Of a stretch of 64,000 bases of DNA, positions 5,255 through 59,737 are shown in pieces (positions within the stretch are counted from its first letter, which is position 1; the number at the start of each line of letters is the position of its first letter). The position numbers and the translations under genes were made by a program. The stretch is from positions 64,880 through 128,879 of the forward strand of contig JBBTRX010000002.1 of NCBI GenBank assembly GCA_038064975.1, given 5' to 3'. The DNA comes from Patescibacteria group bacterium (GTDB lineage: Bacteria > Patescibacteriota > Minisyncoccia > UBA6257 > 1-14-0-10-40-38). The notes under the pieces are model-generated. The model made no database searches. It saw only the letters and a list, made by a program, of their open reading frames with translations, and was not told where the DNA came from.

Positions 5255-5380
5255 TGTCGGGGTGCCGGGAGATCTCACGTCGTCCGGCAATGCCGGACTC
5301 CTTGAAACCCAGCGGTTTCAACAACTTCCGCATCGGGAAAACTCCCGATTTTTCCGACCCCTTTCCCGTTCGATTTTCCG
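5255..5380 (-). repeat. tRNA-3'-end-associated structured repeat, copy A (subtype 2), downstream of tRNA-Pro
   Basis: It begins (plus strand) with 19 nt identical to the tRNA-Pro 3' end plus trailer (ttctgtcggggtgccggga). The conserved core runs GATCTCACGTCG...CCGACCCCTTTCCCGTTCGATT, and the far end carries an inverted T-loop copy. It is about 90% identical to copies C and G. Confidence 0.8.
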
Positions 5381-5599: not shown

Positions 5600-7078
5600 T
5601 TACTTAACAAAATATTTCTTCTTGATCTCCTCATCGATGCGATGCTGCGCAGCGGATGCACTTTCTTTTGCCTTTCGTGCAAAATCCTCAAGCTCCTTAT
5701 CGGTCATCTTGCCCAATTCCTGAATTCTCTTTTCCAACACCTTTTTAGTATTGTATTTTGGATCTTCCAAAACTTCTTCCAAAAGCACCGCAAGAATTTT
5801 TCCAATCCGCGGTCCAGGAGACATCTTAAGGACGCGCATCACGTCTTCTCCATTCGCCTTCAACATCTTCGGGCTTACTGGATCTTTCTGTACTTTCTCA
5901 ATCATCGCGCGCAGATAGCGTAATCGATACGGTTGAGCCTTGGGCACACCGGATCCGATGCGATCCGCTTCGCGAAGTTTTAAAAGCGCATCTACATTGT
6001 CTTTACCAACACGCGCAATAAGCCGGCGTACACCCGCAAGAGTTACCGCTTCTGGATCGTATACAAACATATGCTCGCGCACTAAGAGAGCTACAGTCTC
6101 CGTAAGCGTTTTTGAGAAACGGAGGCGATCCATAATAGTTGCCGTCATCCGTTCGCCAACAACTTGATGTCCGTAAAAGGTAGAGTCCGGTCCATCCCCT
6201 TTTTTTGAACGCGGCTTTCCAACGTCATGAAAAAGTGACGCAAGGCGGATATGGAGCGGAAACCGTTCTGCTACCGCGTATTCCAATGATCGAAGATTAT
6301 GTTCAAAGACAGTATAGATATGATGCTTGTTTTGCGTTACGCTGATCCCCTCTTCAATTTCAGGAGCGATATGAATGAGAAGTTTGTGTGCGAGAAGCAT
6401 ACGCACACCCTCTGCAGCACGGTCGGTCAGCATGAGTTTTGTAAACTCATCGCGTATACGTTCCTTGGAAACATATGCCAAAAGCCCGCTCTGTTTTGTA
6501 ATCGCTTGTGCGGTCTTTTCTTCGATCGCAAATCCAAGCTGCGCACTAAACCGAATCGCCCGCAAAAGACGAAGAGCGTCTTCTTCAAATCGCTGCTCAG
6601 CCTTTCCTACGGCGCGAATAATTTTTTTCTTTAAATCTTCCTGTCCGTGATAAGGATCAACAATCAACTCTCTACTTGCATCGGTTATTTTTAATGCCAT
6701 CGCATTCACTGTAAAATCTCTGCGCGAGAGATCTTCTTCTATTGTAGAAGCGAAAGTTACCTCGTCTGGGTGACGCTTGTCACTATATTTCCCTTCAATA
6801 CGAAATGTCGTAACTTCAATTACTTTTAGTTTTGGATCTTCCGAATCCGTTTTTACTCCCACGGTGCCAAATTCATTTTCATATACTGAATCTGAGAATA
6901 ACTTTTGAATTTCTTCTGGCTTTGCATTCGTTGCGACGTCCCAGTCACTCGGACCTTCCGCAGGAGAATTCTCCATCATAATGTCCCGAACGCATCCGCC
7001 CACAAGATACGCATCAAAACCGCCCTCGTTTAAGCGTTCGGCGATCATTTTTACCTCTTTTGGGATGCGGCTTTTCAT
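5600..7078 (-). CDS. cca: CCA-adding tRNA nucleotidyltransferase with HD domain
   Basis: Pol-beta-like nucleotidyltransferase N-terminus (GGCVRD) plus a C-terminal HD domain (HDVGK). Confidence 0.8.
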   Translation of the reverse strand: MKSRIPKEVKMIAERLNEGGFDAYLVGGCVRDIMMENSPAEGPSDWDVATNAKPEEIQKLFSDSVYENEFGTVGVKTDSEDPKLKVIEVTTFRIEGKYSDKRHPDEVTFASTIEEDLSRRDFTVNAMALKITDASRELIVDPYHGQEDLKKKIIRAVGKAEQRFEEDALRLLRAIRFSAQLGFAIEEKTAQAITKQSGLLAYVSKERIRDEFTKLMLTDRAAEGVRMLLAHKLLIHIAPEIEEGISVTQNKHHIYTVFEHNLRSLEYAVAERFPLHIRLASLFHDVGKPRSKKGDGPDSTFYGHQVVGERMTATIMDRLRFSKTLTETVALLVREHMFVYDPEAVTLAGVRRLIARVGKDNVDALLKLREADRIGSGVPKAQPYRLRYLRAMIEKVQKDPVSPKMLKANGEDVMRVLKMSPGPRIGKILAVLLEEVLEDPKYNTKKVLEKRIQELGKMTDKELEDFARKAKESASAAQHRIDEEIKKKYFVK

Positions 7079-7194: not shown

Positions 7195-7674
7195 CTACTG
7201 ATTCTTAATCTCCAATTTTCTTGCTTTTGCCCGATTTCGTTTAGGAAGCTTTATTTTTAAAACTCCGTTTTTGATCGTTGCCTCTGCGCCTTCAGGATCA
7301 ACTTCTTCCGGCAAAGAAACTGAACGAGCGAACTTTCCCCAATAGCATTCATGGTAAACATAATCTTCGTGACGTACGTCATGCTCCCGCTCTCGCTTTC
7401 CTCGGATCGTAATCCCATCCGCAGTAATCACGACATCAATATCTTCAGGATCAACTCCGGCAATCGGCGACTCAACGATAACGTCTCCCCCTTTGTTATA
7501 TACATCAATCGTAAGCTGCCCCTCATCTTCACCGATATGCGGATCAGAAGTCACATCTATTTCCGTTTTTACTTTTGTTGCCGACGCGCGCGTAAGACCA
7601 ATATCAAAAGGCGCCGGAGGTATTTCGGAGCTCGCACGTAATTCTTCTAAAAATTTTCTTGTTTCGTCGCTCAT
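7195..7674 (-). CDS. Hsp20/alpha-crystallin family small heat-shock protein
   Basis: Alpha-crystallin domain with GVLKIKLPK near the C-terminus. Confidence 0.8.
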   Translation of the reverse strand: MSDETRKFLEELRASSEIPPAPFDIGLTRASATKVKTEIDVTSDPHIGEDEGQLTIDVYNKGGDVIVESPIAGVDPEDIDVVITADGITIRGKREREHDVRHEDYVYHECYWGKFARSVSLPEEVDPEGAEATIKNGVLKIKLPKRNRAKARKLEIKNQ

Positions 7675-13951: not shown

Positions 13952-13976
13952 GATAAATTGTTTTGTTTTAAGAGTG

Positions 13977-14100
13977 TGCTCCCAAGGGGAGTCTCACGTC
14001 GCTTCACTCTTTAAAAACCGTCGGTTTTTAATATTTTCCTCCACGGGAGGAACCCGGCAGCTTTCCTCCCGACCCCTCCTTCGTTCGATTCTCTCTTGGG
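13977..14100 (-). repeat. tRNA-3'-end-associated structured repeat, copy B (subtype 1), downstream of tRNA-Glu
   Basis: It starts with a 14-nt copy of the tRNA-Glu 3' end (tgctcccaagggga). The subtype-1 core contains TTAAAAACCGTCGGTTTTTAA, CCTCCACGGGAGGA and CCTCCCGACCCCTCC. It ends in an inverted T-loop copy. Confidence 0.8.
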
Positions 14101-24708: not shown

Positions 24709-25176
24709 ATGAAATTATCCACACTCTGCTTCTGTGTGCGCGACGACCAGGTTCTCCTGGCCATGAAAAAGCGCGGTTTCGGACAAGAAAAATGGAATGG
24801 ATATGGCGGTAAAGTTACCGAGAAAGAAACTCCGCGAACTGCCGCTGTTCGGGAAATCAAAGAAGAGTCTGACTTATCCGTCTCCGAAGAAGCGTTGAAA
24901 CAAGTTGGTTTGATAAATTTCTACTTTGATGGCGATCACGCTTTTGAGTGCCATGTTTTTCTCGTACGAGAGTGGCAGGGAGAACCTCAAGAATCAGATG
25001 AAATGAGGCCGTGCTGGTTTTCAGCCTCACAACTCCCCTTTGAAAAAATGTGGGTGGCTGACGTGTTGTGGCTCCCTCTTGTTCTTGCCGGGAAGAAACT
25101 GAAAGCGGAAGTGAATTTCAACAAAGATGGGAGTGAAGTAAAATCTTTCTCCTACGAAGAAACAGAATTTAATTGA
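24709..25176 (+). CDS. NUDIX hydrolase (MutT-like)
   Basis: Nudix box GGKVTEKETPRTAAVREIKEESDL. Confidence 0.75.
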   Translation: MKLSTLCFCVRDDQVLLAMKKRGFGQEKWNGYGGKVTEKETPRTAAVREIKEESDLSVSEEALKQVGLINFYFDGDHAFECHVFLVREWQGEPQESDEMRPCWFSASQLPFEKMWVADVLWLPLVLAGKKLKAEVNFNKDGSEVKSFSYEETEFN

Positions 25177-25372
25177 ATCGGGTCTCGTGATTACCGTCAC
25201 CGAGGCCCGTTTTTTTATGGCAAGAAATTGGAGTGGATCGCTTACGGAGCGAGTTAGTGAACGACGTTAGAACCTATTATGGCAGTGTTGAAGAAAGATT
25301 TTTGTGCCCAGCTTTATATATAAAAACCGCCGCAAGGCTGATACCTTGGGCGGTCTTGAGCGCTGATCGTTG

Positions 25373-25720
25373 CTATCTCGTTTTAACTTCCCGAAATAAT
25401 TCTCTCTCAAAGCAATGCTTCAGGAGAGCGAGGAGTTTCTCTCGGTAGGGATAACTACCGAGATAGATCTCGGTATTGCATTTGGGGCATTGAATGTCAC
25501 AAACGTCACGTTCTGAAAACAACCAATCACCCCCACCATGTGGTCTTGGACGCATATAGGTTCTTTGGATAAAAATCCACGAAGACACTTTGCTCTTTTT
25601 GCCACACTTCGTGCAGAGGATAAGCGTGTTTCGGATGATATTCCGATGCTCTTCTCTAAGGTTCTTTTGATCCTGTTTGAGTTCATGAAGCTTACGCTCC
25701 ACAGCGACGATCCTTCTCAT
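25373..25720 (-). CDS. hypothetical zinc-ribbon protein
   Basis: Two CxxC pairs (CTKCGKK and CPKCNTE) plus an N-terminal coiled coil. Confidence 0.4.
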   Translation of the reverse strand: MRRIVAVERKLHELKQDQKNLREEHRNIIRNTLILCTKCGKKSKVSSWIFIQRTYMRPRPHGGGDWLFSERDVCDIQCPKCNTEIYLGSYPYREKLLALLKHCFERELFREVKTR

Positions 25721-25910
25721 ATAAACCTCCTTTCAAGGTTCTAAAGAAAACAATACACCATTGCTTTAATAATCACAAAATTGACAATTACTTGTTAAAT
25801 CGCCTTAGGGCTTTTTTAGAATAAAAACGATAATTTTTATAAAATTTGAAATATAATTAACAGGCGAGCCTCGCCCAAAGCTGAACTATTTAAAATTAAT
25901 AAGGAAGCTT

Positions 25911-26032
25911 TGAGCGGGGTAGAGAGTCTCACATCGTCCGGCTCTGCCGGACTCTTTGAAACCCAGCGGTTTCAACAGCTTCCGCATCGGGGAAACTACC
26001 GATTTCCCCGACCCCCTTCCCGTTCGATTCTC
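25911..26032 (-). repeat. tRNA-3'-end-associated structured repeat, copy C (subtype 2), distal tandem copy at tRNA-Gly
   Basis: It starts with tgagcggggtagaga (a tRNA-Gly 3'-end mimic) and its core is about 90% identical to A and G. Confidence 0.8.
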
Positions 26033-26085
26033 TTCTTACTCATTCCAAATAAAATGACTCACTATCACGGTGAGTCATTTTACGT

Positions 26086-26246
26086 TGAGCGGGGTACGAG
26101 AGTCTCACGTCGTCCGGCTCTGCCGAACTCCTTAAAACCCATCGGTTTTAACTCGCTCACTTCGTTCGCTTTTCCGCCTCGGAGAAACTTCCGTTTCCCC
26201 GACCCTGCCTACCGGTAGGCAGGCCCCTTCCTGTTCGATTCTCTCT
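26086..26246 (-). repeat. tRNA-3'-end-associated structured repeat, copy D (divergent subtype 2 with palindromic insert), proximal copy at tRNA-Gly
   Basis: It starts with tgagcggggtacgaga, which is 16/16 identical to the tRNA-Gly 3' end. It shares the core 5' part with subtype 2. It shows the compensatory hairpin change TTGAAACC/GGTTTCAA to TTAAAACC/GGTTTTAA. It carries an extra 20-nt perfect palindrome CCTGCCTACCGGTAGGCAGG. Confidence 0.75.
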
Positions 26247-26300
26247 TTACTCATTCATAACAAAAACAACCCATCGCAAGAATGGACTGTTTTTGTTATG

Positions 26301-26371
26301 AGCGGGGTACGAGAATCGAACTCGCGGCTCGACCTTGGCAAGGTCGCGTATTACCACTATACTAACCCCGC
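26301..26371 (-). tRNA. tRNA-Gly (anticodon GCC)
   Basis: Close match to E. coli tRNA-Gly(GCC) through the anticodon arm (CGACCTTGCCAAGGTCG), with U73. Confidence 0.85.
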
Positions 26372-26587
26372 AAAATTACTTTATTTATTGTGGAGGAAGT
26401 CCTTGTGGACCTTTGACGTAAGGATCTCCCGTAGGACCAATGAAGCCGTTTGTATCGGTTGGTGCCGCAGACTCTTGAGGTCGGAATAACACTACCACTA
26501 GTAGCGCCCCCACGATGACAAGCGCAAGCACAATAACAATTGTCTTCATGTAAGTTATTTAACTATATTTGAGCTTCGAATGCAAAT

Positions 26588-26614
26588 AAAAAACGGACGC
26601 CGGTTAGGGAGTCC
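26588..26614 (-). terminator. rho-independent terminator downstream of the RT gene
   Basis: On the minus strand: hairpin CGGACtccctaaccggcGTCCG followed by TTTTTTATTTGCATT. Confidence 0.55.
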
Positions 26615-26659
26615 GTTGTTGGGAAGGTGGGCTACTCAAAACTGATTCGCCCATTTGTA

Positions 26660-27598
26660 TTAGCGTTGGTATGAGTGGTAGGTGTTGAGCAGTTTCTTTT
26701 CGGTCTGATTCAGTTCCAAGCCATTATCTTTGTAGAATTGGGCGATATAGAGGAAGAGACTCATCATCCCCTGGATTTTTGCCGACGAGACTTCGCCTTT
26801 TCTCATTGCCAGATTGAGAGCTCCCCGCACTCTCCGAAAATATGCGCGAGGGACGAAGATTCTACCATCTTCTGCAATCCCGATACCTGTTACGACAACA
26901 GGTCTTTTTGTAAGATCCACGCAATCAGATTTCCAGTGATTAATTATGAATCCGGCTTGGTCCGCAAGTATTCGTATCTTGCGACGCGTACTCGCCACAA
27001 TGGGATTTGGTGAAGAGAAGGTCAGGTCATCAATATAGCGCGTATACGTAATCCCAAATTCTTCACATAGATCACCAATATCTCCATCCAAGAGCGATCC
27101 CACCGAGAGATTGAAAAGATCTTGTGAGGCAGGACCGCCCGTGACCAATCCATGCTCCTTGTGAAAAAAATATTGAATGAGAAAAGCGACCAGCTCTTCT
27201 CTTTGCGACGCAAGCTTTTCATCAAGCGCAATCAACGTGTCGGCGACATGCGAGGGGAGAACGCTCCGATATGCATGGCGGAAATCAACAAGATAGAAAA
27301 ACCTATTCTCTCGATGTATGAGTGCATTATTGAGAGGAGATGATTTCGGCAATGCAGCAGTTGCATAGCGCAGAAATTGAGACCGTATCTGCTCATTGAC
27401 GTGCATAGGACTGCGCAAATGACCCAAAAATTCTCTTTGCAAATGAAGCATGCTGTTATTGGGCGCAAAAACGATACGACGCTTCGTGTGTCCGCTTAAA
27501 GGATTTTCATCGCGGATAGGAAACATCGTAAAACGAGGAGATTCCCCGTACTCGCGCTCCAATTGAGCCACGAGACTTTTCAGATTTTCAACGAGCAT
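26660..27598 (-). CDS. reverse transcriptase, retron-type (start trimmed to MLVENL; good SD AAGGAGG)
   Basis: RT motif 1/2 (FPIR..RRIVFAPNNSMLHLQ), motif A (LVDFRHAYRSV), motif B (LVTGGPASQDLFNL), motif C (YIDD), and a downstream VVVTGIGI that matches the retron-characteristic VTG motif. At 312 aa it has no maturase or endonuclease domain. Confidence 0.75.
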   Translation of the reverse strand: MLVENLKSLVAQLEREYGESPRFTMFPIRDENPLSGHTKRRIVFAPNNSMLHLQREFLGHLRSPMHVNEQIRSQFLRYATAALPKSSPLNNALIHRENRFFYLVDFRHAYRSVLPSHVADTLIALDEKLASQREELVAFLIQYFFHKEHGLVTGGPASQDLFNLSVGSLLDGDIGDLCEEFGITYTRYIDDLTFSSPNPIVASTRRKIRILADQAGFIINHWKSDCVDLTKRPVVVTGIGIAEDGRIFVPRAYFRRVRGALNLAMRKGEVSSAKIQGMMSLFLYIAQFYKDNGLELNQTEKKLLNTYHSYQR

Positions 27599-27655
27599 GG
27601 AAACCTCCTTGTTTTGTAGTTCTGGGGTTGGGTTTTGACTATAGTTCCTGAACTG

Positions 27656-27690
27656 AAGAAATGCAAATAAAAAAGGACCCCACAGAGATG
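27656..27690 (-). terminator. terminator-like hairpin plus T-tract between the candidate ncRNA and the RT start
   Basis: On the minus strand: GCCCCACAtctcTGTGGGGtcc followed by TTTTTTATTTGCATT. The T-tract is identical to the one after the RT gene. Confidence 0.5.
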
Positions 27691-27704
27691 TGGGGCGATC
27701 AGCG

Positions 27705-27960
27705 GTATCCGAAGGTGAGTTTTGCGACAGAAAAGTGAAATGTGCTGATCTAGTGGCCGGTCGTCCGCACTCCGCCCGCGCGCGCGGCCCGGAAAGGCTG
27801 GTTGTAAGGAAAACCCGTTGCCGGATTCTCATTCCGCTACGTGAGTAGCGAAGGGAACAGGAAAAGAAGTAGAGAGATTAACGAACTCTCCATCCGAGAG
27901 CTTTTGGTCAAGTGCTCCAGACTCGCTTTTCCATCTCCTCACCTTCGGATCGTTCCTGAC
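27705..27960 (-). ncRNA. candidate retron-like structured ncRNA (msr/msd-like) upstream of the RT
   Basis: A 13-bp terminal inverted repeat ATCCGAAGGTGAG/CTCACCTTCGGAT brackets about 215 nt. AGCGAG follows the 5' repeat. The region has GC-rich hairpins (CCGCGCGCGCGG, CGCTACtcacGTAGCG, CTCTCggatgGAGAG) and is driven by its own promoter. The function is unproven. Confidence 0.35.
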
Positions 27961-27998
27961 CTGTGTCAGGAACACTAGGCCGCTAACCCAGTGTGGAT

Positions 27999-28028
27999 AC
28001 TATATCATTTCAATATTTTATGAGTCAA
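27999..28028 (-). promoter_or_regulatory. sigma70-like promoter (TTGACT-18-TATAGT) driving the ncRNA/RT unit
   Basis: On the minus strand: TTGACT cataaaatattgaaatga TATAGT. It lies about 40 nt upstream of the 5' inverted repeat. Confidence 0.45.
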
Positions 28029-28039
28029 TTAGATATATA

Positions 28040-28075
28040 AAAAAGACCCGACGTTCAAAAACGTCGGGATAGTGG
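28040..28075 (-). terminator. rho-independent terminator (minus strand)
   Basis: Hairpin CCCGACGTTtttgAACGTCGGG followed on the minus strand by TCTTTTTTATATA. Confidence 0.5.
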
Positions 28076-28281
28076 CGTACCCGTCATGGTGGGAGAAATC
28101 ACGGAGCTCTACGACGGGAGCGAGCGATGAATTGGCGTCATCGCTGGTTGCAACACCTGCGACCTTGTCGCCTTGCGCTCTCCTCCTCCATACCATGACG
28201 AGTACGTGTGGAGTGTAATCAAATCATCGTCATTCCGCAAGTTATGCGAACTGGTCGATTCCTCTCTCGTAAAACACAAAA

Positions 28282-28319
28282 AAGAAAAACCGCCCATAGA
28301 GGACGGCCTTTTCTTTTTG
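28282..28319 (-). terminator. terminator immediately after tRNA-Arg(GCG)
   Basis: On the minus strand: hairpin CCGTCCtctatGGGCGG followed by TTTTTCTTTTTT. Confidence 0.5.
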
Positions 28320-28391
28320 TGCGCTCGAGAGGAATCGAACCTCTATTACGGGATCCGCAATCCCGTGTCCTATCCGTTGAACGACGAGCGC
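28320..28391 (-). tRNA. tRNA-Arg (anticodon GCG)
   Basis: Perfect acceptor GCGCTCG/CGAGCGC with A73, anticodon stem CGGGA/TCCCG, loop TTGCGGA and T-loop TTCGATT. The GCG anticodon is unusual for bacterial tRNA-Arg, so the call is uncertain. It could be a variant or a pseudogene. Confidence 0.65.
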
Positions 28392-28404
28392 ATACAATGC
28401 TTTT

Positions 28405-28881
28405 TTAAAATCTAAGAATTCTCGCGATGTGGCGGATAAACGAATCTTCGTATTCTATTTCCGGCAAGACGTCTGTAAGGAATGTATGTACAGCTTCTTT
28501 GCGTTGTTCGGCAAGAATGACGATAAGCCACGGCTCAATATGACTCTTGGTTTTGAAGATAAGTTCCGCAAGTTCCGGATCTTCCGGTGCGGGAATAATA
28601 GCAAATCCTTCCAAATTATCATAGGGGTGGAAGTGATGTTCGCCGATAGCGATTCCTTTCTCCGAAAGAGTGAAGTCAATGTCCTTCGGCCTCCGCATAC
28701 CCCAAGCAAGCACGAGTAAGGCGGCAATGGCTATAAAAACCGCGAAAAGAAAATTACGTTGAAATACGGCAACACTCGCAAGAACGATACTAGAACCAAT
28801 GACGATCCAGTACCATCCAAAATTCTTATGATAGTAATGAAATTCCGGAGCAGTCCACTGAATTTCTTTTTTCGTTTCCAT
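28405..28881 (-). CDS. two-TM membrane protein with C-terminal bPH-like domain
   Basis: Two N-terminal TM helices followed by a roughly 90-aa soluble domain. Confidence 0.45.
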   Translation of the reverse strand: METKKEIQWTAPEFHYYHKNFGWYWIVIGSSIVLASVAVFQRNFLFAVFIAIAALLVLAWGMRRPKDIDFTLSEKGIAIGEHHFHPYDNLEGFAIIPAPEDPELAELIFKTKSHIEPWLIVILAEQRKEAVHTFLTDVLPEIEYEDSFIRHIARILRF

Positions 28882-28886
28882 ATTTG

Positions 28887-29708
28887 TTAATCTCTAAATA
28901 ATAAACTCACAAAGAAAAATACTGCCGCGACTGCGATAATAGAAGGCCCGATCTCAAACGCAAAGCGGTTCGCAATGAGCCAACCGACTAATACTGAAAG
29001 AGAAGAGATAAGTGCAGAGGCAAATAAATCTCCTTTAAAACTTTTTGCCACATTTTTTGCCGTTGCGGCCGGAACGATAATAAGAGAGCCCATGAGGAGA
29101 ACACCTAAGAAGTTAAGCCCGAGGAGTACAGTGATCACAAAAAACATGAGGAATAAAAATTCCAAAAACTCTCGCCTGATTCCCGTAACAGCCGCGAGAT
29201 CAGCGGAGAGAAAAGAAATCGCAAACCGTTCTTTAAGCGAAAGAATGAGCCCGATAATGACGAGCCCCGTAACCATTCCCACGATCGCCTCTCCCCAAGT
29301 GAAGAGCGTCTCTCCACCAAAGAGAAGTTCAAGGAGTTCATGGTCAGGAGAAAGGAGCGCTCCCACAGCAAGCGAGGTAGAAAACACAACACCCACGATT
29401 GTTTCCGTCGCTATCTTCGTTTTAAGTTCAAGCCGCCACACTAAAACCGCGCCAAGGAAAAGTGCGATCGCTCCCCCAATGAGCGGATTAATACCGATCA
29501 GCATCGCCGCTCCCAACCCCGGGAGCGCAACGTGAGACATCGCGTCTGCCGCGAGTGTCATCCTGCGCATAAGTGCGAAAGCACCGACAAGTCCCGAAGC
29601 TGCTGCTACCACGAGCATCGCAACGAGCGAAAAAAATTCCAAAGTATTCATATCCTTATTTTTTAGCGTGAATATGTTCAAAAGGAAGCGAGCCGTACAA
29701 CTTATCAA
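28887..29708 (-). CDS. ABC-3 family metal (Zn/Mn) transporter permease
   Basis: Eight-TM ZnuB/MntB-like permease that overlaps the upstream ATPase gene. Confidence 0.75.
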   Translation of the reverse strand: MISCTARFLLNIFTLKNKDMNTLEFFSLVAMLVVAAASGLVGAFALMRRMTLAADAMSHVALPGLGAAMLIGINPLIGGAIALFLGAVLVWRLELKTKIATETIVGVVFSTSLAVGALLSPDHELLELLFGGETLFTWGEAIVGMVTGLVIIGLILSLKERFAISFLSADLAAVTGIRREFLEFLFLMFFVITVLLGLNFLGVLLMGSLIIVPAATAKNVAKSFKGDLFASALISSLSVLVGWLIANRFAFEIGPSIIAVAAVFFFVSLLFRD

Positions 29709-46746: not shown

Positions 46747-47088
46747 GGGGATGCCGGGCTTCGATAAGGCATATTCTCTACAGATGGCATGCCGAGCCGC
46801 AATATCTCGTTAACCTGTTGCAAACTATAACTGCAAACCACAAAGTTGCAGCACCAGCATTTGCCTTTGCGTAAGTGCGTGGTGTCCCCTTCCATTAATG
46901 GAAGGGCATCGGTCCTGACGCTTCATAGGGATTAACCGGTGTTATATCTGATGCTCAAGATGCGCGAAGATTAGGATTCGTCGGCACGCATTCGAAAACC
47001 AAATGAATTCTTTGTTTCTTTTGAAACTAAGCATGTAGAAGTTTGTTCTGAACATCCTTAGATGTGGGTTCAACTCCCACCATCTCCA
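46747..47088 (+). ncRNA. ssrA: transfer-messenger RNA (tmRNA, ssrA)
   Basis: 5' GGGGATG pairs with 3' CATCTCC and includes a G3:U pair. There is a tRNA-like T-arm (GTGGGTTCAACTCCCAC). An internal tag ORF, with resume codon GCA, encodes ANHKVAAPAFAFA followed by a stop. The gene lies next to smpB. Confidence 0.8.
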
Positions 47089-47098
47089 CAAATAAAAA

Positions 47099-59603: not shown

Positions 59604-59726
59604 GTGCTCCCGGCAGGAGGTCTCACGTCGTCCGGCTCTGCCGGACTCTTTGAAACCCAGCGGTTTCAACAGCTTCCGCCTCGGGGAAACTTCCGTTTCC
59701 CCGACCCCTTTCCCGTTCGACTCCTG
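59604..59726 (-). repeat. tRNA-3'-end-associated structured repeat, copy G (subtype 2), proximal copy at tRNA-Arg(CCG)
   Basis: It starts gtgctcccggcagga. The core is about 90% identical to A and C. It folds into a closing stem GCAGGAG/CTCCTGC with three internal hairpins. Confidence 0.8.
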
Positions 59727-59737
59727 CTACAGGAAAA

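What the first reader, a model, noticed from the sequence alone, without database searches (positions are those of the whole stretch)
26577..28040. Retron-type reverse transcriptase with an upstream promoter-driven structured ncRNA
The 312-aa RT has motifs 1-7, YIDD, and a VTG-containing segment (KRPVVVTGIGIAEDG) of the kind seen in retron RTs. Upstream on the same strand is a TTGACT-18-TATAGT promoter. It is followed by a roughly 250-nt GC-rich, hairpin-dense non-coding stretch bracketed by a 13-bp inverted repeat, ATCCGAAGGTGAG ... CTCACCTTCGGAT, which resembles retron a1/a2. AGCGAG follows the 5' repeat, much like the branch-G context of known msr. Oddly, a hairpin plus T-tract lies between this RNA and the RT start. 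The RT cassette is also flanked by two terminators sharing an identical 15-nt T-tract, TTTTTTATTTGCATT. No canonical effector gene is adjacent. The nearest candidates are a two-TM membrane protein at 28405-28881 and a zinc-ribbon protein at 25373-25720, each separated from the RT by a tRNA gene.
Basis: partly seen in the sequence, partly recalled or inferred. Interest (0 to 1): 0.8.

Follow-up and report, generated by a model that had tools for sequence, protein, structure and literature searches.

The report
Effector-less retron of CPR bacteria
This is a real retron-type reverse transcriptase with its own conserved structured RNA; it belongs to a large lineage found here only in ultra-small "candidate phyla radiation" bacteria, and that lineage has no toxin partner gene next to it and an unusual RNA layout.

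Summary
Window 27598-26660 (-) encodes a 312-aa RT with YIDD, NAxxH and VTG. Its best sequence and fold matches are all retron RTs, but it sits in no described retron type. Upstream lie a sigma-70-like promoter, a ~320-nt structured RNA (z = -5.5) closed by a perfect 13-bp inverted repeat, and a terminator.

About 100 homologous loci from Patescibacteria MAGs carry the same RNA plan: a1, a variable hairpin, two covarying hairpins (H1, H2), a variable hairpin region (M), then a2. A covariance model of H1-H2 finds it in 52 loci. It is always on the RT strand, either upstream of the RT or about 100-200 nt downstream of its stop. It gives no hit with E below 0.1 in 40 loci of distant RTs.

Features not expected of a canonical retron:
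- No neighbouring gene is conserved (stand-alone cassette).
- The RNA gene is mobile relative to the RT and is probably transcribed separately in the window.
- At least four loci have two RNA genes per RT.
- A covarying helix (b1:b2) crosses a1:a2.
- No conserved branch G can be placed.

msDNA synthesis is inferred, not shown.

The parts
28047..28068 (-). Terminator-like hairpin plus T-tract that closes the preceding non-coding unit, just 5' of the retron promoter
   Evidence: 9-bp stem, 6 G-C pairs, TCTTTTTTAT tail
27999..28028 (-). Promoter-like site of the ncRNA: TTGACT, 18 nt, TG-TATAGT. The start of transcription is inferred near 27992.
   Evidence: read
27675..27992 (-). Predicted ncRNA transcript (msr-msd-like), about 320 nt, from promoter to terminator
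   Evidence: z = -5.5; no Rfam family matches it
27980..27989 (-). 5' leader GGGUUAGCGG. In the window's minimum-energy fold it pairs with the 3' tail CCGCUGAUC. This pairing was not seen when the leaders of the closest relatives were read.
   Evidence: reading the sequences; no count was made
27952..27973 (-). Hairpin H-1 (GUUCCUGAC-ACAG-GUCAGGAAC) directly 5' of a1. A hairpin at this position recurs in many loci of the ncRNA-upstream type.
27938..27950 (-). a1, the 5' arm of the 13-bp closing inverted repeat (AUCCGAAGGUGAG)
27854..27937 (-). H0, a long imperfect hairpin between a1 and H1. It is variable in the family and unusually long in the window.
27833..27852 (-). H1, a conserved hairpin (UUCGCUAC-UCAC-GUAGCGGA). 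The family loop consensus is YCAYG.
   Evidence: 9 pairs, 93% of cells paired, all 9 with changes on both sides
27809..27830 (-). H2, a conserved hairpin (GAGAAUCCG-GCAA-CGGGUUUUC)
   Evidence: 10 pairs, 87% paired, all 10 with changes on both sides. The CM hit in the window is 27856-27804, 34.3 bits, E = 7e-5, and is the only hit in 64 kb.
27751..27808 (-). M, the variable GC-rich region that occupies the place of the msd stem-loop. It is weakly structured in the window itself.
   Evidence: family: 39-233 nt, median 80, median z = -2.1; window: z = +1.3
27744..27750 (-). b1 (GAUCAGC), the window's version of the family motif CYUCAGCG. It is complementary to b2.
27720..27743 (-). 24-nt spacer between b1 and a2. 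Under the retron model these are the first bases to be copied.
   Evidence: 15-35 nt in most loci, up to about 50; the template role is inferred
27707..27719 (-). a2, the 3' arm of the closing inverted repeat (CUCACCUUCGGAU)
27697..27703 (-). b2 (GCUGAUC), the window's version of the family tail motif (C)CGCUGA, which lies 0-4 nt 3' of a2. It pairs with b1, and this pairing crosses a1:a2.
   Evidence: (CGCTG within 10 nt of a2 in 23 of 44 ncRNAs; background 0.6%)
27660..27696 (-). Intrinsic-terminator-like hairpin (27696-27677) plus the T-tract and 15-mer TTTTTTATTTGCATT (27674-27660)
   Evidence: A similar terminator followed by TTTTTTTATTTGCTTTTC sits in relative L144.
27638..27667 (-). Second promoter-like site, TTTGCA-18-TATAGT. 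It overlaps the T-tract and is placed to drive the RT separately.
   Evidence: 9 of 12 matches; function inferred
26660..27598 (-). Retron-type reverse transcriptase, 312 aa, with RBS AAGGAGG at 27610-27604
26579..26616 (-). Weak hairpin (ACGGAC, 12-nt loop, GUCCGU) plus the second copy of TTTTTTATTTGCATT. TATAGT and the 54-aa ORF 26549-26385 follow.
   Evidence: The terminator scan did not call it because the loop exceeds 8 nt.

Best explanation
The locus is a retron in the structural sense: a retron-type RT plus a cognate msr-msd-like ncRNA. It belongs to an RT lineage found here only in Patescibacteria (CPR) that is stand-alone, with no conserved partner gene.

Shown here:
- The RT has the retron hallmarks and a retron RT fold.
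- The RNA has a conserved plan: a1, H0, H1, H2, M, b1, a spacer (15-35 nt in most loci, up to about 50), a2, b2.
- H1 and H2 covary strongly. The a1:a2 sequences differ between loci but stay complementary.
- The RNA gene always lies on the RT strand, either just upstream of the RT or just downstream of it.

Inferred mechanism:
- In the window the RNA is made from its own strong promoter and ends at its own terminator. The RT is made from the weaker promoter that overlaps the T-tract.
- The RT recognises H1-H2 (the msr-like part).
- a1:a2 brings a priming guanosine 2'-OH next to the base 5' of a2.
- The RT then copies the spacer, b1 and M, which is up to about 89 nt in the window (27720-27808). 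It stops at the foot of H2.
- RNase H trims the template, leaving a branched msDNA-RNA bound to the RT.
- The b1:b2 helix stacks on or competes with a1:a2. It would clamp the 3' end of the free-standing transcript before copying and would be destroyed by copying.

Biological role: not known. My working guess is a phage-sensing RT-msDNA particle that acts with an unlinked partner or by itself. A domesticated non-defence role is the main alternative.
For: RT identity
- NAxxH, VTG and YIDD are present. H95, G238 and D190/D191 are invariant in 22 of 22 aligned family members, and N91 in at least 90%.
- All 22 members match every retron RT model of PADLOC, with best E-values per model between about 1e-21 and 1e-33 and no clear favourite.
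- PDB profile hits and Foldseek hits are led only by retron RTs.

RNA
- Fold z = -5.5.
- Long-range perfect repeats of at least 12 bp occur in 20 of 68 loci against 8 of 257 control windows.
- The H1-H2 covariance model hits 52 of the 99 family loci searched in that call, at E below 0.04. All those hits are on the RT strand, at -81 to -553 or at +1048 to +1389 relative to the RT start.
- It gives no hit with E below 0.1 in 40 loci of distant RTs, about 350 kb.
- Covariation: 90% of cells are paired against 45-58% when the partners are slid. There are 350 cells with changes on both sides against 42-76.
- Loci with the RNA downstream of the RT have their own a1/a2 bracket and a TATAAT box about 20 nt before a1.
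- The two RNA genes of L021 share H1-H2, b1 and b2 but have different, compensated a1/a2 arms and a different M.

b1:b2
- Both motifs are enriched about 60-90-fold over background.
- Compensatory variants are seen.
- Each b1 pairs better with its own tail than with permuted tails: 5.38 against 4.50 +/- 0.14, 0 of 5000 permutations as high.

Stand-alone status
- No neighbour cluster is shared beyond local synteny.
- The window's neighbours are housekeeping genes.
- No small membrane ORF recurs downstream of the RT.
- The closest relatives sit after infC-rpmI-rplT.

Family size: 484 clusters at 50% identity with E <= 1e-30, most of the 150 best being about 290-350 aa.
Against: - No msDNA data exist.
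- No conserved G, and no pair of opposing Gs, is found at the inner end of a1:a2. The priming nucleotide therefore cannot be placed.
- In the window itself, M is not a convincing long hairpin (z = +1.3).
- b1:b2 crosses a1:a2. The two may be alternative folds rather than coexisting, and I know of no counterpart in canonical msr-msd RNAs.
- RT motif 4 reads GGPASQ rather than the GAPSSP seen at this position in the aligned Ec83 RT.
- Without an effector, the usual retron logic (a toxin held in check by msDNA) does not apply, so the function is a guess.
- The covariation alignment was fitted to the model, so the counts lean towards the modelled structure. Permutation tests ignore the relatedness of the loci.
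Confidence: 0.72

Rival explanations
1. The RT uses the RNA, but not in the canonical retron way. One option is priming at the conserved G that follows b1, with b1:b2 acting as the primer-template duplex; the RT would then copy a2 and the spacer to give a very short cDNA. Another option is 3'-OH or protein priming, or repetitive synthesis as in DRT2 or DRT9.
For: - b1 and b2 are the most sequence-conserved parts of the RNA, and they covary.
- A G often follows CAGCG.
- No branch G is conserved next to a1.
- RT-plus-ncRNA two-part systems exist; DRT2 and DRT9 structures appear among the weaker fold matches.
Against: - H1-H2, the likely RT-binding hairpins, would then lie 5' of the primer, the reverse of retron order.
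- M varies freely in length and sequence, as msd does.
- M differs between RNA paralogues that share everything else, as expected of a template or product region.
- The RT is far closer to retron RTs than to DRT2 or DRT9.
- No repeated template ends or open reading frame are seen in M.
Confidence: 0.15
2. The RNA is an independent small RNA or a cis-regulatory leader that merely travels with the RT gene and is not a template.
For: - It has its own promoter and terminator in the window.
- It can lie on either side of the RT.
Against: - Strict co-occurrence, strand and spacing with one RT lineage in 52 loci, and no hit with E below 0.1 in 40 loci of distant RTs.
- A retron-like a1/a2 closing stem.
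- A leader cannot act from downstream of the gene.
Confidence: 0.05
3. It is a decaying retron remnant that lost its effector and no longer functions.
For: No effector gene is nearby. M is weakly structured in the window.
Against: - There are hundreds of diverged clusters. In the 22 aligned members the catalytic and retron motifs are intact, and most of the 150 best hits are full-length.
- Compensatory changes maintain four helices.
- RNA gene duplications retain the conserved modules.
- The ORF is intact and has a strong RBS.
Confidence: 0.05
4. It is a diversity-generating retroelement (the dominant RT class in CPR) or a group II intron RT.
For: - DGRs make up about 80% of CPR RTs (PMC8632793).
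- Motif 4 has SQ, as I recall DGR RTs do (own knowledge; the motif itself is).
Against: - No template/variable repeat pair was found in 11 kb around the RT. No copy of the RNA occurs elsewhere in the 64-kb window or in the other loci, apart from RNA paralogues.
- DGR and group II RTs are distant by sequence and by fold.
- No intron RNA family was found.
- NAxxH and VTG are present.
Confidence: 0.02

Closest known systems
Stand-alone (msr-msd)-RT cassettes: the Retron-Eco5 (Ec107) branch of RT clade 2 (Gammaproteobacteria) and RT clade 11 (Actinobacteria), described in Mestre et al. 2020, PMC7736814
   Same: - An RT plus ncRNA with no conserved third gene.
- A lineage-restricted distribution. 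Those authors suggest this may reflect vertical inheritance and a possible non-defence role.
- Here, local synteny is kept between the window and L007/L008, and between L144 and L146.
   Different: - Different phylum.
- The PADLOC RT_Ec107-like model scores no better (83 bits) than the models of six other types, so this is not a member of that branch.
- The RNA has extra helices (b1:b2, c1:b1), may lie downstream of the RT, and may be duplicated.
- I could not compare it with clade 11 sequences.
Canonical tripartite retrons, such as Retron-Eco1 (Ec86) and Retron-Sen2 (St85) of type II-A, and Ec83/Ec78 of type I-A
   Same: - RT size, fold and the motifs NAxxH, VTG and YxDD.
- An RNA closed by terminal inverted repeats, with short conserved hairpins followed by a variable hairpin region.
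- These are the best HMM, PDB and fold matches.
   Different: - Only 15-21% identity over the fold alignments.
- No effector gene.
- No recognisable branch-G context.
- In the window the RNA and RT are separated by a terminator and a promoter.
- Gene order is variable.
- A helix pairs the tail 3' of a2 with the template region.
DRT2 (UG2) and DRT9: defence RTs that work with only an ncRNA
   Same: A two-part system of RT plus structured ncRNA with no separate effector gene.
   Different: - The RT class is different (Drt2 NCBIfam E = 0.002; Foldseek TM 0.57, rmsd 13 A).
- Those RTs are larger.
- Their RNAs are not closed by a1/a2, and, from my own knowledge, they make concatemeric or homopolymeric cDNA.
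[quoted passage not shown]
   Same: Retron RTs recovered from metagenomes that retain NAxxH and VTG but lack the fused effector domain. They come from Bacteroidota and Bacillota. The most distant relatives found here are also from Bacteroidota (L038-L063).
   Different: - Those lineages have recurrent separate accessory genes.
- A text search of that paper finds no mention of Patescibacteria or CPR.
- The type XI PADLOC models are not the best match.

Membership tests
Retron (RT + msr-msd ncRNA) | RT with region X motif NAxxH | tested here: met
   NNALIH at residues 90-95. H95 is invariant and N91 at least 90% conserved in 22 family members. The motif definition is from PMC7736814.
Retron (RT + msr-msd ncRNA) | RT with region Y motif VTG in RT7 | tested here: met
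   VVVTGIG. G238 is invariant in the family.
Retron (RT + msr-msd ncRNA) | RT groups with retron RTs rather than with group II, DGR, Abi/UG or CRISPR RTs | tested here: met
   HMM matches, PDB profile search and fold search of a pLDDT 94.7 model. No tree with reference clades was built.
Retron (RT + msr-msd ncRNA) | Contiguous ncRNA whose ends pair through inverted repeats a1/a2 | tested here: met
   13 bp in the window. Brackets of 10-18 bp, with different sequences, enclose H1-H2 in about 45 ncRNAs.
Retron (RT + msr-msd ncRNA) | One to three conserved short hairpins (msr) after a1 | tested here: met
   H1 and H2: 19 pairs, all with changes on both sides, 90% of cells paired.
Retron (RT + msr-msd ncRNA) | Long stable stem-loop (msd) before a2 | tested here: inconclusive
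   Family: M closes end to end in most loci, with median z = -2.1, and is a single hairpin in 17 of 37. Window: weak, z = +1.3.
Retron (RT + msr-msd ncRNA) | Conserved branching G at the 3' end of a1, facing a G before a2 | tested here: not met
   The bases flanking the inner end of the stem vary and are rarely G/G. No conserved G lies in the a1-H1 spacer. The window's AGCGAG is 10 nt away and is not conserved. The stem may extend through mismatches, so a branch G is not excluded.
Retron (RT + msr-msd ncRNA) | Production of msDNA (branched RNA-DNA) | not testable with these tools
   Needs expression and nucleic-acid analysis, or raw reads.
Retron (RT + msr-msd ncRNA) | msr-msd and ret transcribed as one RNA | tested here: not met
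   Window: a terminator (27696-27677) and a promoter-like site (27667-27638) lie between them. Family: 20 loci have the two adjacent, at least 5 have a hairpin and T-tract between, and 13 have the RNA downstream of the RT. All of this is prediction from sequence only.
Tripartite retron defence system (types I-XIII) | A conserved effector gene or a fused effector domain | tested here: not met
   No shared neighbour within +/-5 kb in 38 loci. Most of the 150 best family hits are 290-350 aa. No conserved small ORF.
Type IV retron (Ec48-like) | A two-TM protein gene just downstream of, or overlapping, the RT | tested here: not met
   ORF 28405-28881 is upstream, beyond a tRNA, abuts an ABC-3 permease gene, and is not conserved near the RT.
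Ec107-like stand-alone retrons (clade 2 branch) | RT scores best, and strongly, against the Ec107-like model | tested here: not met
   83 bits, equal to I-C and below II-A (87.8). The same flat profile is seen for all 22 members.
Diversity-generating retroelement | Template repeat and variable repeat pair near the RT | tested here: not met

The most novel reading that the evidence does not exclude
CPR bacteria carry an old, largely vertically kept retron lineage that works with no toxin. The RT-msDNA particle would itself be the functional unit. It might act as a nucleic-acid decoy or sensor, or have a housekeeping role in cells with minimal genomes. One RT can serve two or more RNA genes with different msd regions. 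A pseudoknot-like b1:b2 / a1:a2 arrangement would gate priming on a free-standing transcript.
Probability: 0.25. Interest if true: 0.8.

Novelty: new variant of a known kind. Interest (0 to 1): 0.62.

Why it matters
Retrons are now understood as three-part toxin-antitoxin-like defence systems. What effector-less retrons do has been an open question since Mestre et al. 2020.

This locus represents a large lineage (484 clusters at 50% identity) that was found here only in Patescibacteria MAGs and unassigned environmental contigs. I found no mention of CPR or Patescibacteria retrons in the papers I could search. The lineage offers many natural variants of one RT-RNA pair, including RNA genes up- or downstream of the RT, duplicated RNA genes and compensated stems. 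These variants make the recognition rules testable.

Its presence in organisms with very small genomes argues that an RT plus msDNA alone can be useful.

Practically, it supplies compact RTs (about 300 aa) with defined cognate RNAs for RT-DNA production tools.

Tried and rejected
- Rfam scan of 25000-29500 at E <= 10: only the two tRNAs; nothing on the ncRNA.
- nhmmer and blastn of the window ncRNA against the 63 loci then held: no primary-sequence similarity. The comparison therefore had to rest on structure.
- Search for an effector. Clustering ORFs of at least 70 aa within about +/-5-6 kb gave only the RT, antisense ORFs inside it, and local synteny. A search for 25-90-aa hydrophobic ORFs after the RT found them in only 3 of 74 loci, one being the window. 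Pfam on eight window neighbours gave ABC-3, an ABC ATPase, NUDIX, FMN reductase and an ECF sigma factor, and nothing for the two reader candidates or the 54-aa ORF.
- Association with tRNA genes: not general.
- Phage origin: no family member in IMG/VR.
- DGR reading: no TR/VR repeats.
- A conserved 5' leader motif [CT]TCAG before a1: not enriched (7 of 44 against a 10% background), so dropped as a family feature.
- Leader:tail pairing in the window: not seen when the leaders of the closest relatives were read.
- Placing the branch G from the bases flanking a1/a2 and from the a1-H1 spacers: no conserved G.
- A MAFFT alignment of b1+b2 mini-sequences came out unregistered. It was replaced by a permutation test.
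- Supplementary tables of Mestre et al. are not held, so I could not check whether any CPR RT was in their data set.
- Literature searches for retrons in Patescibacteria, CPR or Saccharibacteria returned nothing relevant.
Full report
**1. What is in the window**

On the minus strand, reading 5' to 3', the elements are:
- a terminator-like hairpin (28068-28047);
- a promoter-like site, TTGACT-18-TG-TATAGT (28028-27999);
- about 320 nt without a credible ORF;
- a hairpin with a T-tract (27696-27677, then CCTTTTTTATTTGCATT);
- a second promoter-like site, TTTGCA-18-TATAGT (27667-27638);
- AAGGAGG (27610-27604);
- a 312-aa ORF (27598-26660);
- a weak hairpin followed by the same 15-mer TTTTTTATTTGCATT (26593-26579).

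The 390-aa ORF listed from 27832 is an upstream extension of the RT frame. It runs through the structured RNA. I take the RBS-preceded ATG at 27598, where homology to the family begins, as the start.

The 15-mer occurs exactly twice in 64 kb. Both copies are followed 15-17 nt later by TATAGT. They read as terminator/promoter junctions rather than as a special flank of the cassette.

**2. The protein**

Sequence matches:
- Pfam sees only a sub-threshold RVT_1 match.
- The 25 PADLOC matches shown, of 38, are all retron RT classes. RT_II-A scores 87.8 bits, I-C 83.2, Ec107-like 83.0 and III-A 80.2.
- NCBIfam gives retron St85 (6e-26), Ec67 and the TIR-RT, all far below their cutoffs. Drt2 comes in at 0.002.
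- A profile of 22 family members hits PDB retron RTs first: Ec83 3e-29, Ec86 2e-25, Ec78, Ec67 and Kva2. DRT2, group II and DRT9 follow at 1e-7 or worse.

Structure: an AlphaFold model (pLDDT 94.7, pTM 0.88) has its 18 best Foldseek PDB matches all on retron RTs, with TM 0.64-0.71 over the full length. DRT2, group II and DGR RTs come next.

Motifs: the retron hallmarks named by Mestre et al. (PMC7736814) are present and conserved. These are NAxxH (NNALIH), VTG (VVVTGIG) and YIDD.

Placement: all 22 aligned members match all retron classes about equally, with best E-values per model of about 1e-21 to 1e-33. The family is therefore retron-type but lies inside none of the typed classes.

One oddity: motif 4 reads GGPASQ, where the aligned Ec83 RT has GAPSSP.

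**3. The family**

- The exact protein is annotated as hypothetical in a Patescibacteria MAG.
- Word-indexed search found 24 relatives at 35-49% identity, which sources name as Kaiserbacteria or Parcubacteria. Similarity then drops to 27-30% for proteobacterial retron RTs.
- Scans of species-representative genomes and of metagenomes gave 37 and about 66 loci.
- The genome hits are labelled as Patescibacteria lineages: Saccharibacteria, Paceibacterota, Wildermuth-, Harrison-, Vogel-, Zambryski-, Kerfeld- and Andersenbacteria. Several are labelled only 'bacterium', and two TPA contigs are labelled Gammaproteobacteria. I did not verify those labels.
- A profile search of 1.84 billion representatives found 484 clusters at E <= 1e-30. 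Most of the 150 best are about 290-350 aa, so there is no fused domain.
- No member was found in IMG/VR.

**4. The RNA: closing repeat**

The 336 nt from 27995 to 27660 fold with z = -5.5. They are closed by the perfect 13-bp repeat at 27950-27938 and 27719-27707.

There is no primary-sequence similarity to the other loci and no Rfam family. The architecture, however, recurs. Perfect long-range inverted repeats of at least 12 bp lie upstream of the RT in 20 of 68 loci, against 8 of 257 control windows. Their sequences differ from locus to locus.

**5. The RNA: conserved core**

Single-sequence folds showed two consecutive hairpins in the same place in most loci. H1 has a 9-bp stem and a YCAYG loop. 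H2 has about 10 bp and often a GAAA-type loop.

A covariance model built from 11 copies gave these results:
- Hits at E below 0.04 in 52 of the 99 family loci searched in that call, all on the RT strand. The only minus-strand hit lies among nine weaker ones (E 0.12-0.63).
- A single hit in the 64-kb window (27856-27804).
- Hits at two stereotyped positions: -81 to -553 from the RT start, or +1048 to +1389, which is about 100-200 nt after the stop for the first copy.
- In 40 loci of distant RTs (about 350 kb), no hit with E below 0.1. The three newly fetched close relatives each gave a hit at the expected place.

On the 61 distinct hits, 90% of cells pair, against 45-58% when the partners are slid. 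All 19 pairs show changes on both sides, and there are 350 such cells against 42-76. The alignment was fitted to the model, so these counts lean towards it, but the margin is large.

**6. The RNA: full plan**

I searched around each H1-H2 hit for the best enclosing helix. An a1 of 10-18 nt (G-rich, loosely GGGUYYRGGG) lies about 45-60 nt before H1 in most loci. The matching a2 lies 170-380 nt further on. The same holds in the loci with the RNA downstream of the RT, where a TATAAT box lies about 20 nt before a1.

Between H2 and a2 there are three parts:
- M, a region of 39-233 nt (median 80). It usually closes end to end and is a single hairpin in 17 of 37 loci, with median z = -2.1. In the window it is weak, z = +1.3.
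- The motif CYUCAGCG(G), called b1, found 12-50 nt before a2 in 25 of 44 ncRNAs (background 0.9%).
- A spacer of 15-35 nt in most loci, up to about 50.

Right after a2 comes (C)CGCUGA, called b2. CGCTG lies within 10 nt of a2 in 23 of 44 ncRNAs (background 0.6%).

The order a1, short conserved hairpins, variable hairpin region, a2 is that of msr-msd (PMC7736814).

**7. Extra helices**

b1 and b2 are complementary and change together:

| b1 | b2 | Loci |
|---|---|---|
| UCAGCGG | CCGCUGA | most |
| UCAAC(AU) | (AU)GUUGA | L013, L065, L144, L146 |
| CAGUGGC | GCUACUG | L003 |
| UUAGCG | CGCUA | L088 |
| CAGCU | AGCUG | L011 |
| CAGCGU | ACGCUG | L098, L109 |
| GAUCAGC | GCUGAUC | window |

Each b1 forms a longer Watson-Crick helix with its own tail than with permuted tails. 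The means are 5.38 and 4.50 +/- 0.14, with 0 of 5000 permutations as high. This test ignores the relatedness of the loci.

Because b2 lies outside a1:a2 and b1 lies inside, the two helices cross. They form either a pseudoknot, with the spacer running along a1:a2, or two alternative folds.

A third pairing is less certain. YUGARG (c1), 2-9 nt before H1, pairs with the 5' half of b1. A helix of at least 5 bp is found in 21 of 38 ncRNAs, against 16% of control windows. Examples are CUGAGG:CCUCAG and UUGAAGG:CCUUCAG. It is not evident in the window's own subfamily.

**8. Gene order, transcription and copy number**

Among well-bracketed, non-redundant RNAs:
- 20 end within 70 nt of the RT start;
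- at least 5, including the window, are separated from the RT by a hairpin and a T-tract;
- 13 loci have the RNA after the RT.

The close relative L144 (Kaiserbacteria, 48% RT identity) also has a terminator followed by TTTTTTTATTTGCTTTTC between RNA and RT.

At least four loci carry two complete RNA genes: L001 and L004 (tandem upstream), L013 (tandem downstream) and L021 (one on each side). In L021 the two copies are nearly identical in H1-H2, b1 and b2. Their a1/a2 arms are different but compensated, and M is unrelated.

**9. No partner gene**

- All-against-all clustering of ORFs of at least 70 aa within about +/-5-6 kb of the RT in 38 loci gave one family-wide cluster, the RT itself. The next cluster is antisense ORFs inside the RT gene. 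The rest reflect local synteny in at most five loci.
- The window's neighbours are an ABC-3 permease and ATPase, a NUDIX hydrolase, an FMN reductase and an ECF sigma factor.
- The two-TM ORF abuts the transporter genes. Neither it nor the zinc-ribbon ORF recurs next to the RT.
- The 54-aa membrane ORF after the RT is a one-off. Hydrophobic small ORFs follow the RT in 3 of 74 loci, the window included.
- The closest relatives sit after infC-rpmI-rplT.
- L007 and L008 share tRNA-Arg, tRNA-Gly and four neighbour genes with the window, in a rearranged order.

This looks like long residence within sublineages rather than a defence island.

**10. How it probably works**

The RT identity, the RNA plan, the covariation and the linkage are shown. 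The rest is inference from the established retron pathway.
- The RT binds H1-H2.
- a1:a2 juxtaposes a priming G 2'-OH and the base 5' of a2.
- The RT copies the spacer, b1 and M, which is up to about 89 nt in the window (27720-27808).
- RNase H trims the template.

Copying would destroy b1:b2 (and c1:b1). These helices could therefore hold or protect the precursor and make priming a one-way switch.

The priming G cannot be placed. The bases at the inner end of a1:a2 are variable, and no G is conserved in the a1-H1 spacer.

The biological role is open. Mestre et al. raised the same question for the Ec107 branch and for clade 11.

**11. Rivals**

Four alternatives were considered:
- non-canonical priming at b1:b2, or a DRT-like use of the RNA (0.15);
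- an unrelated small RNA or leader (0.05);
- a dead remnant (0.05);
- a DGR or group II element (0.02).

The DGR reading was tested and rejected: there are no TR/VR repeats, and the DGR RT is distant by fold.

**12. Novelty**

Stand-alone retrons are known (PMC7736814). I found no paper in the held library that describes retrons in Patescibacteria/CPR. A text search of a 2026 metagenome survey of retrons finds no mention of the phylum. The review PMC8632793 notes only that about 80% of CPR RTs are DGRs.

I rate this a new variant of a known kind. It is a separate RT lineage with a distinct, well-supported RNA architecture, a flexible gene order, RNA gene duplications and no effector.

Limits:
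- no experimental data;
- no reference phylogeny;
- peptide-pattern scans under-sample the family;
- some statistics ignore the relatedness of the loci.

Noticed in passing
window 5255-5376, 13975-14092, 25918-26046, 26089-26245, 59605-59730 (all - strand): At least five copies of a conserved structured element of about 115-130 nt. Each lies 55-80 nt downstream of a tRNA gene (Pro, Glu, Gly twice in tandem, Arg-ccg). Each starts with the reverse complement of that tRNA's T-loop/T-stem (for example GAGAATCGAAC). Each ends with an exact 15-nt copy of that tRNA's 3' end (for example TCTCGTACCCCGCTC). Hairpins covary between copies. One copy folds at z = -3.5, and the Gly copies have no Rfam hit. 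It is either a tiny integrative element with a 15-bp att duplication or a tRNA-tethered small RNA.
   Followed up: partly
window 28040-28282 (-): A 240-nt non-coding stretch between the tRNA-Arg(gcg) terminator and the terminator preceding the retron promoter. It is strongly structured (z = -4.5), with a 15-bp long-range stem that includes one G-U pair (GTACTCGTCATGGTA / TACCATGACGGGTAC). It begins with a T-arm complement (GAGAGGAATCGA), like the tRNA-linked elements, but lacks the 3' tRNA copy. The H1-H2 model does not hit it.
   Followed up: partly
window 26385-26549 (-): A 54-aa ORF with one hydrophobic helix and a Pro/Gly-rich tail. It is preceded by the second copy of TTTTTTATTTGCATT and by TATAGT. 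It is not conserved next to the RT in other loci.
   Followed up: yes
RT residues about 153-159 (window about 27140-27120, -): RT motif 4 reads GGPASQ. S is invariant, and Q (sometimes P) follows it in the family. The aligned Ec83 RT has GAPSSP at this position. As far as I recall, SQ is typical of DGR RTs, the dominant RT class in CPR. It may bear on fidelity or substrate choice.
   Followed up: no
L021 5721-5938 and 7038-7277; L001 5434-5645 and about 5785-5985; L004 5423-5618 and 5731-5984; L013 7020-7216 and about 7314-7620: One RT gene with two complete ncRNA genes. The copies share H1-H2, b1 and b2 but carry different compensated a1/a2 arms and different M regions.
   Followed up: partly
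window, whole: The window is rich in small RNA genes: 11 tRNA genes and a tmRNA (46747-47089) in 64 kb. The retron cassette sits between tRNA-Arg(gcg) and tRNA-Gly(gcc). L007 and L008 have tRNA-Arg(ccg) and tRNA-Gly(gcc) directly upstream of their cassette.
   Followed up: partly
L006, L017: Two family loci come from TPA MAG contigs labelled 'uncultured Gammaproteobacteria'. All other taxon-named genome hits are labelled as Patescibacteria lineages, and several are labelled only 'bacterium'. These two are either mislabelled bins or rare members outside CPR.
   Followed up: no
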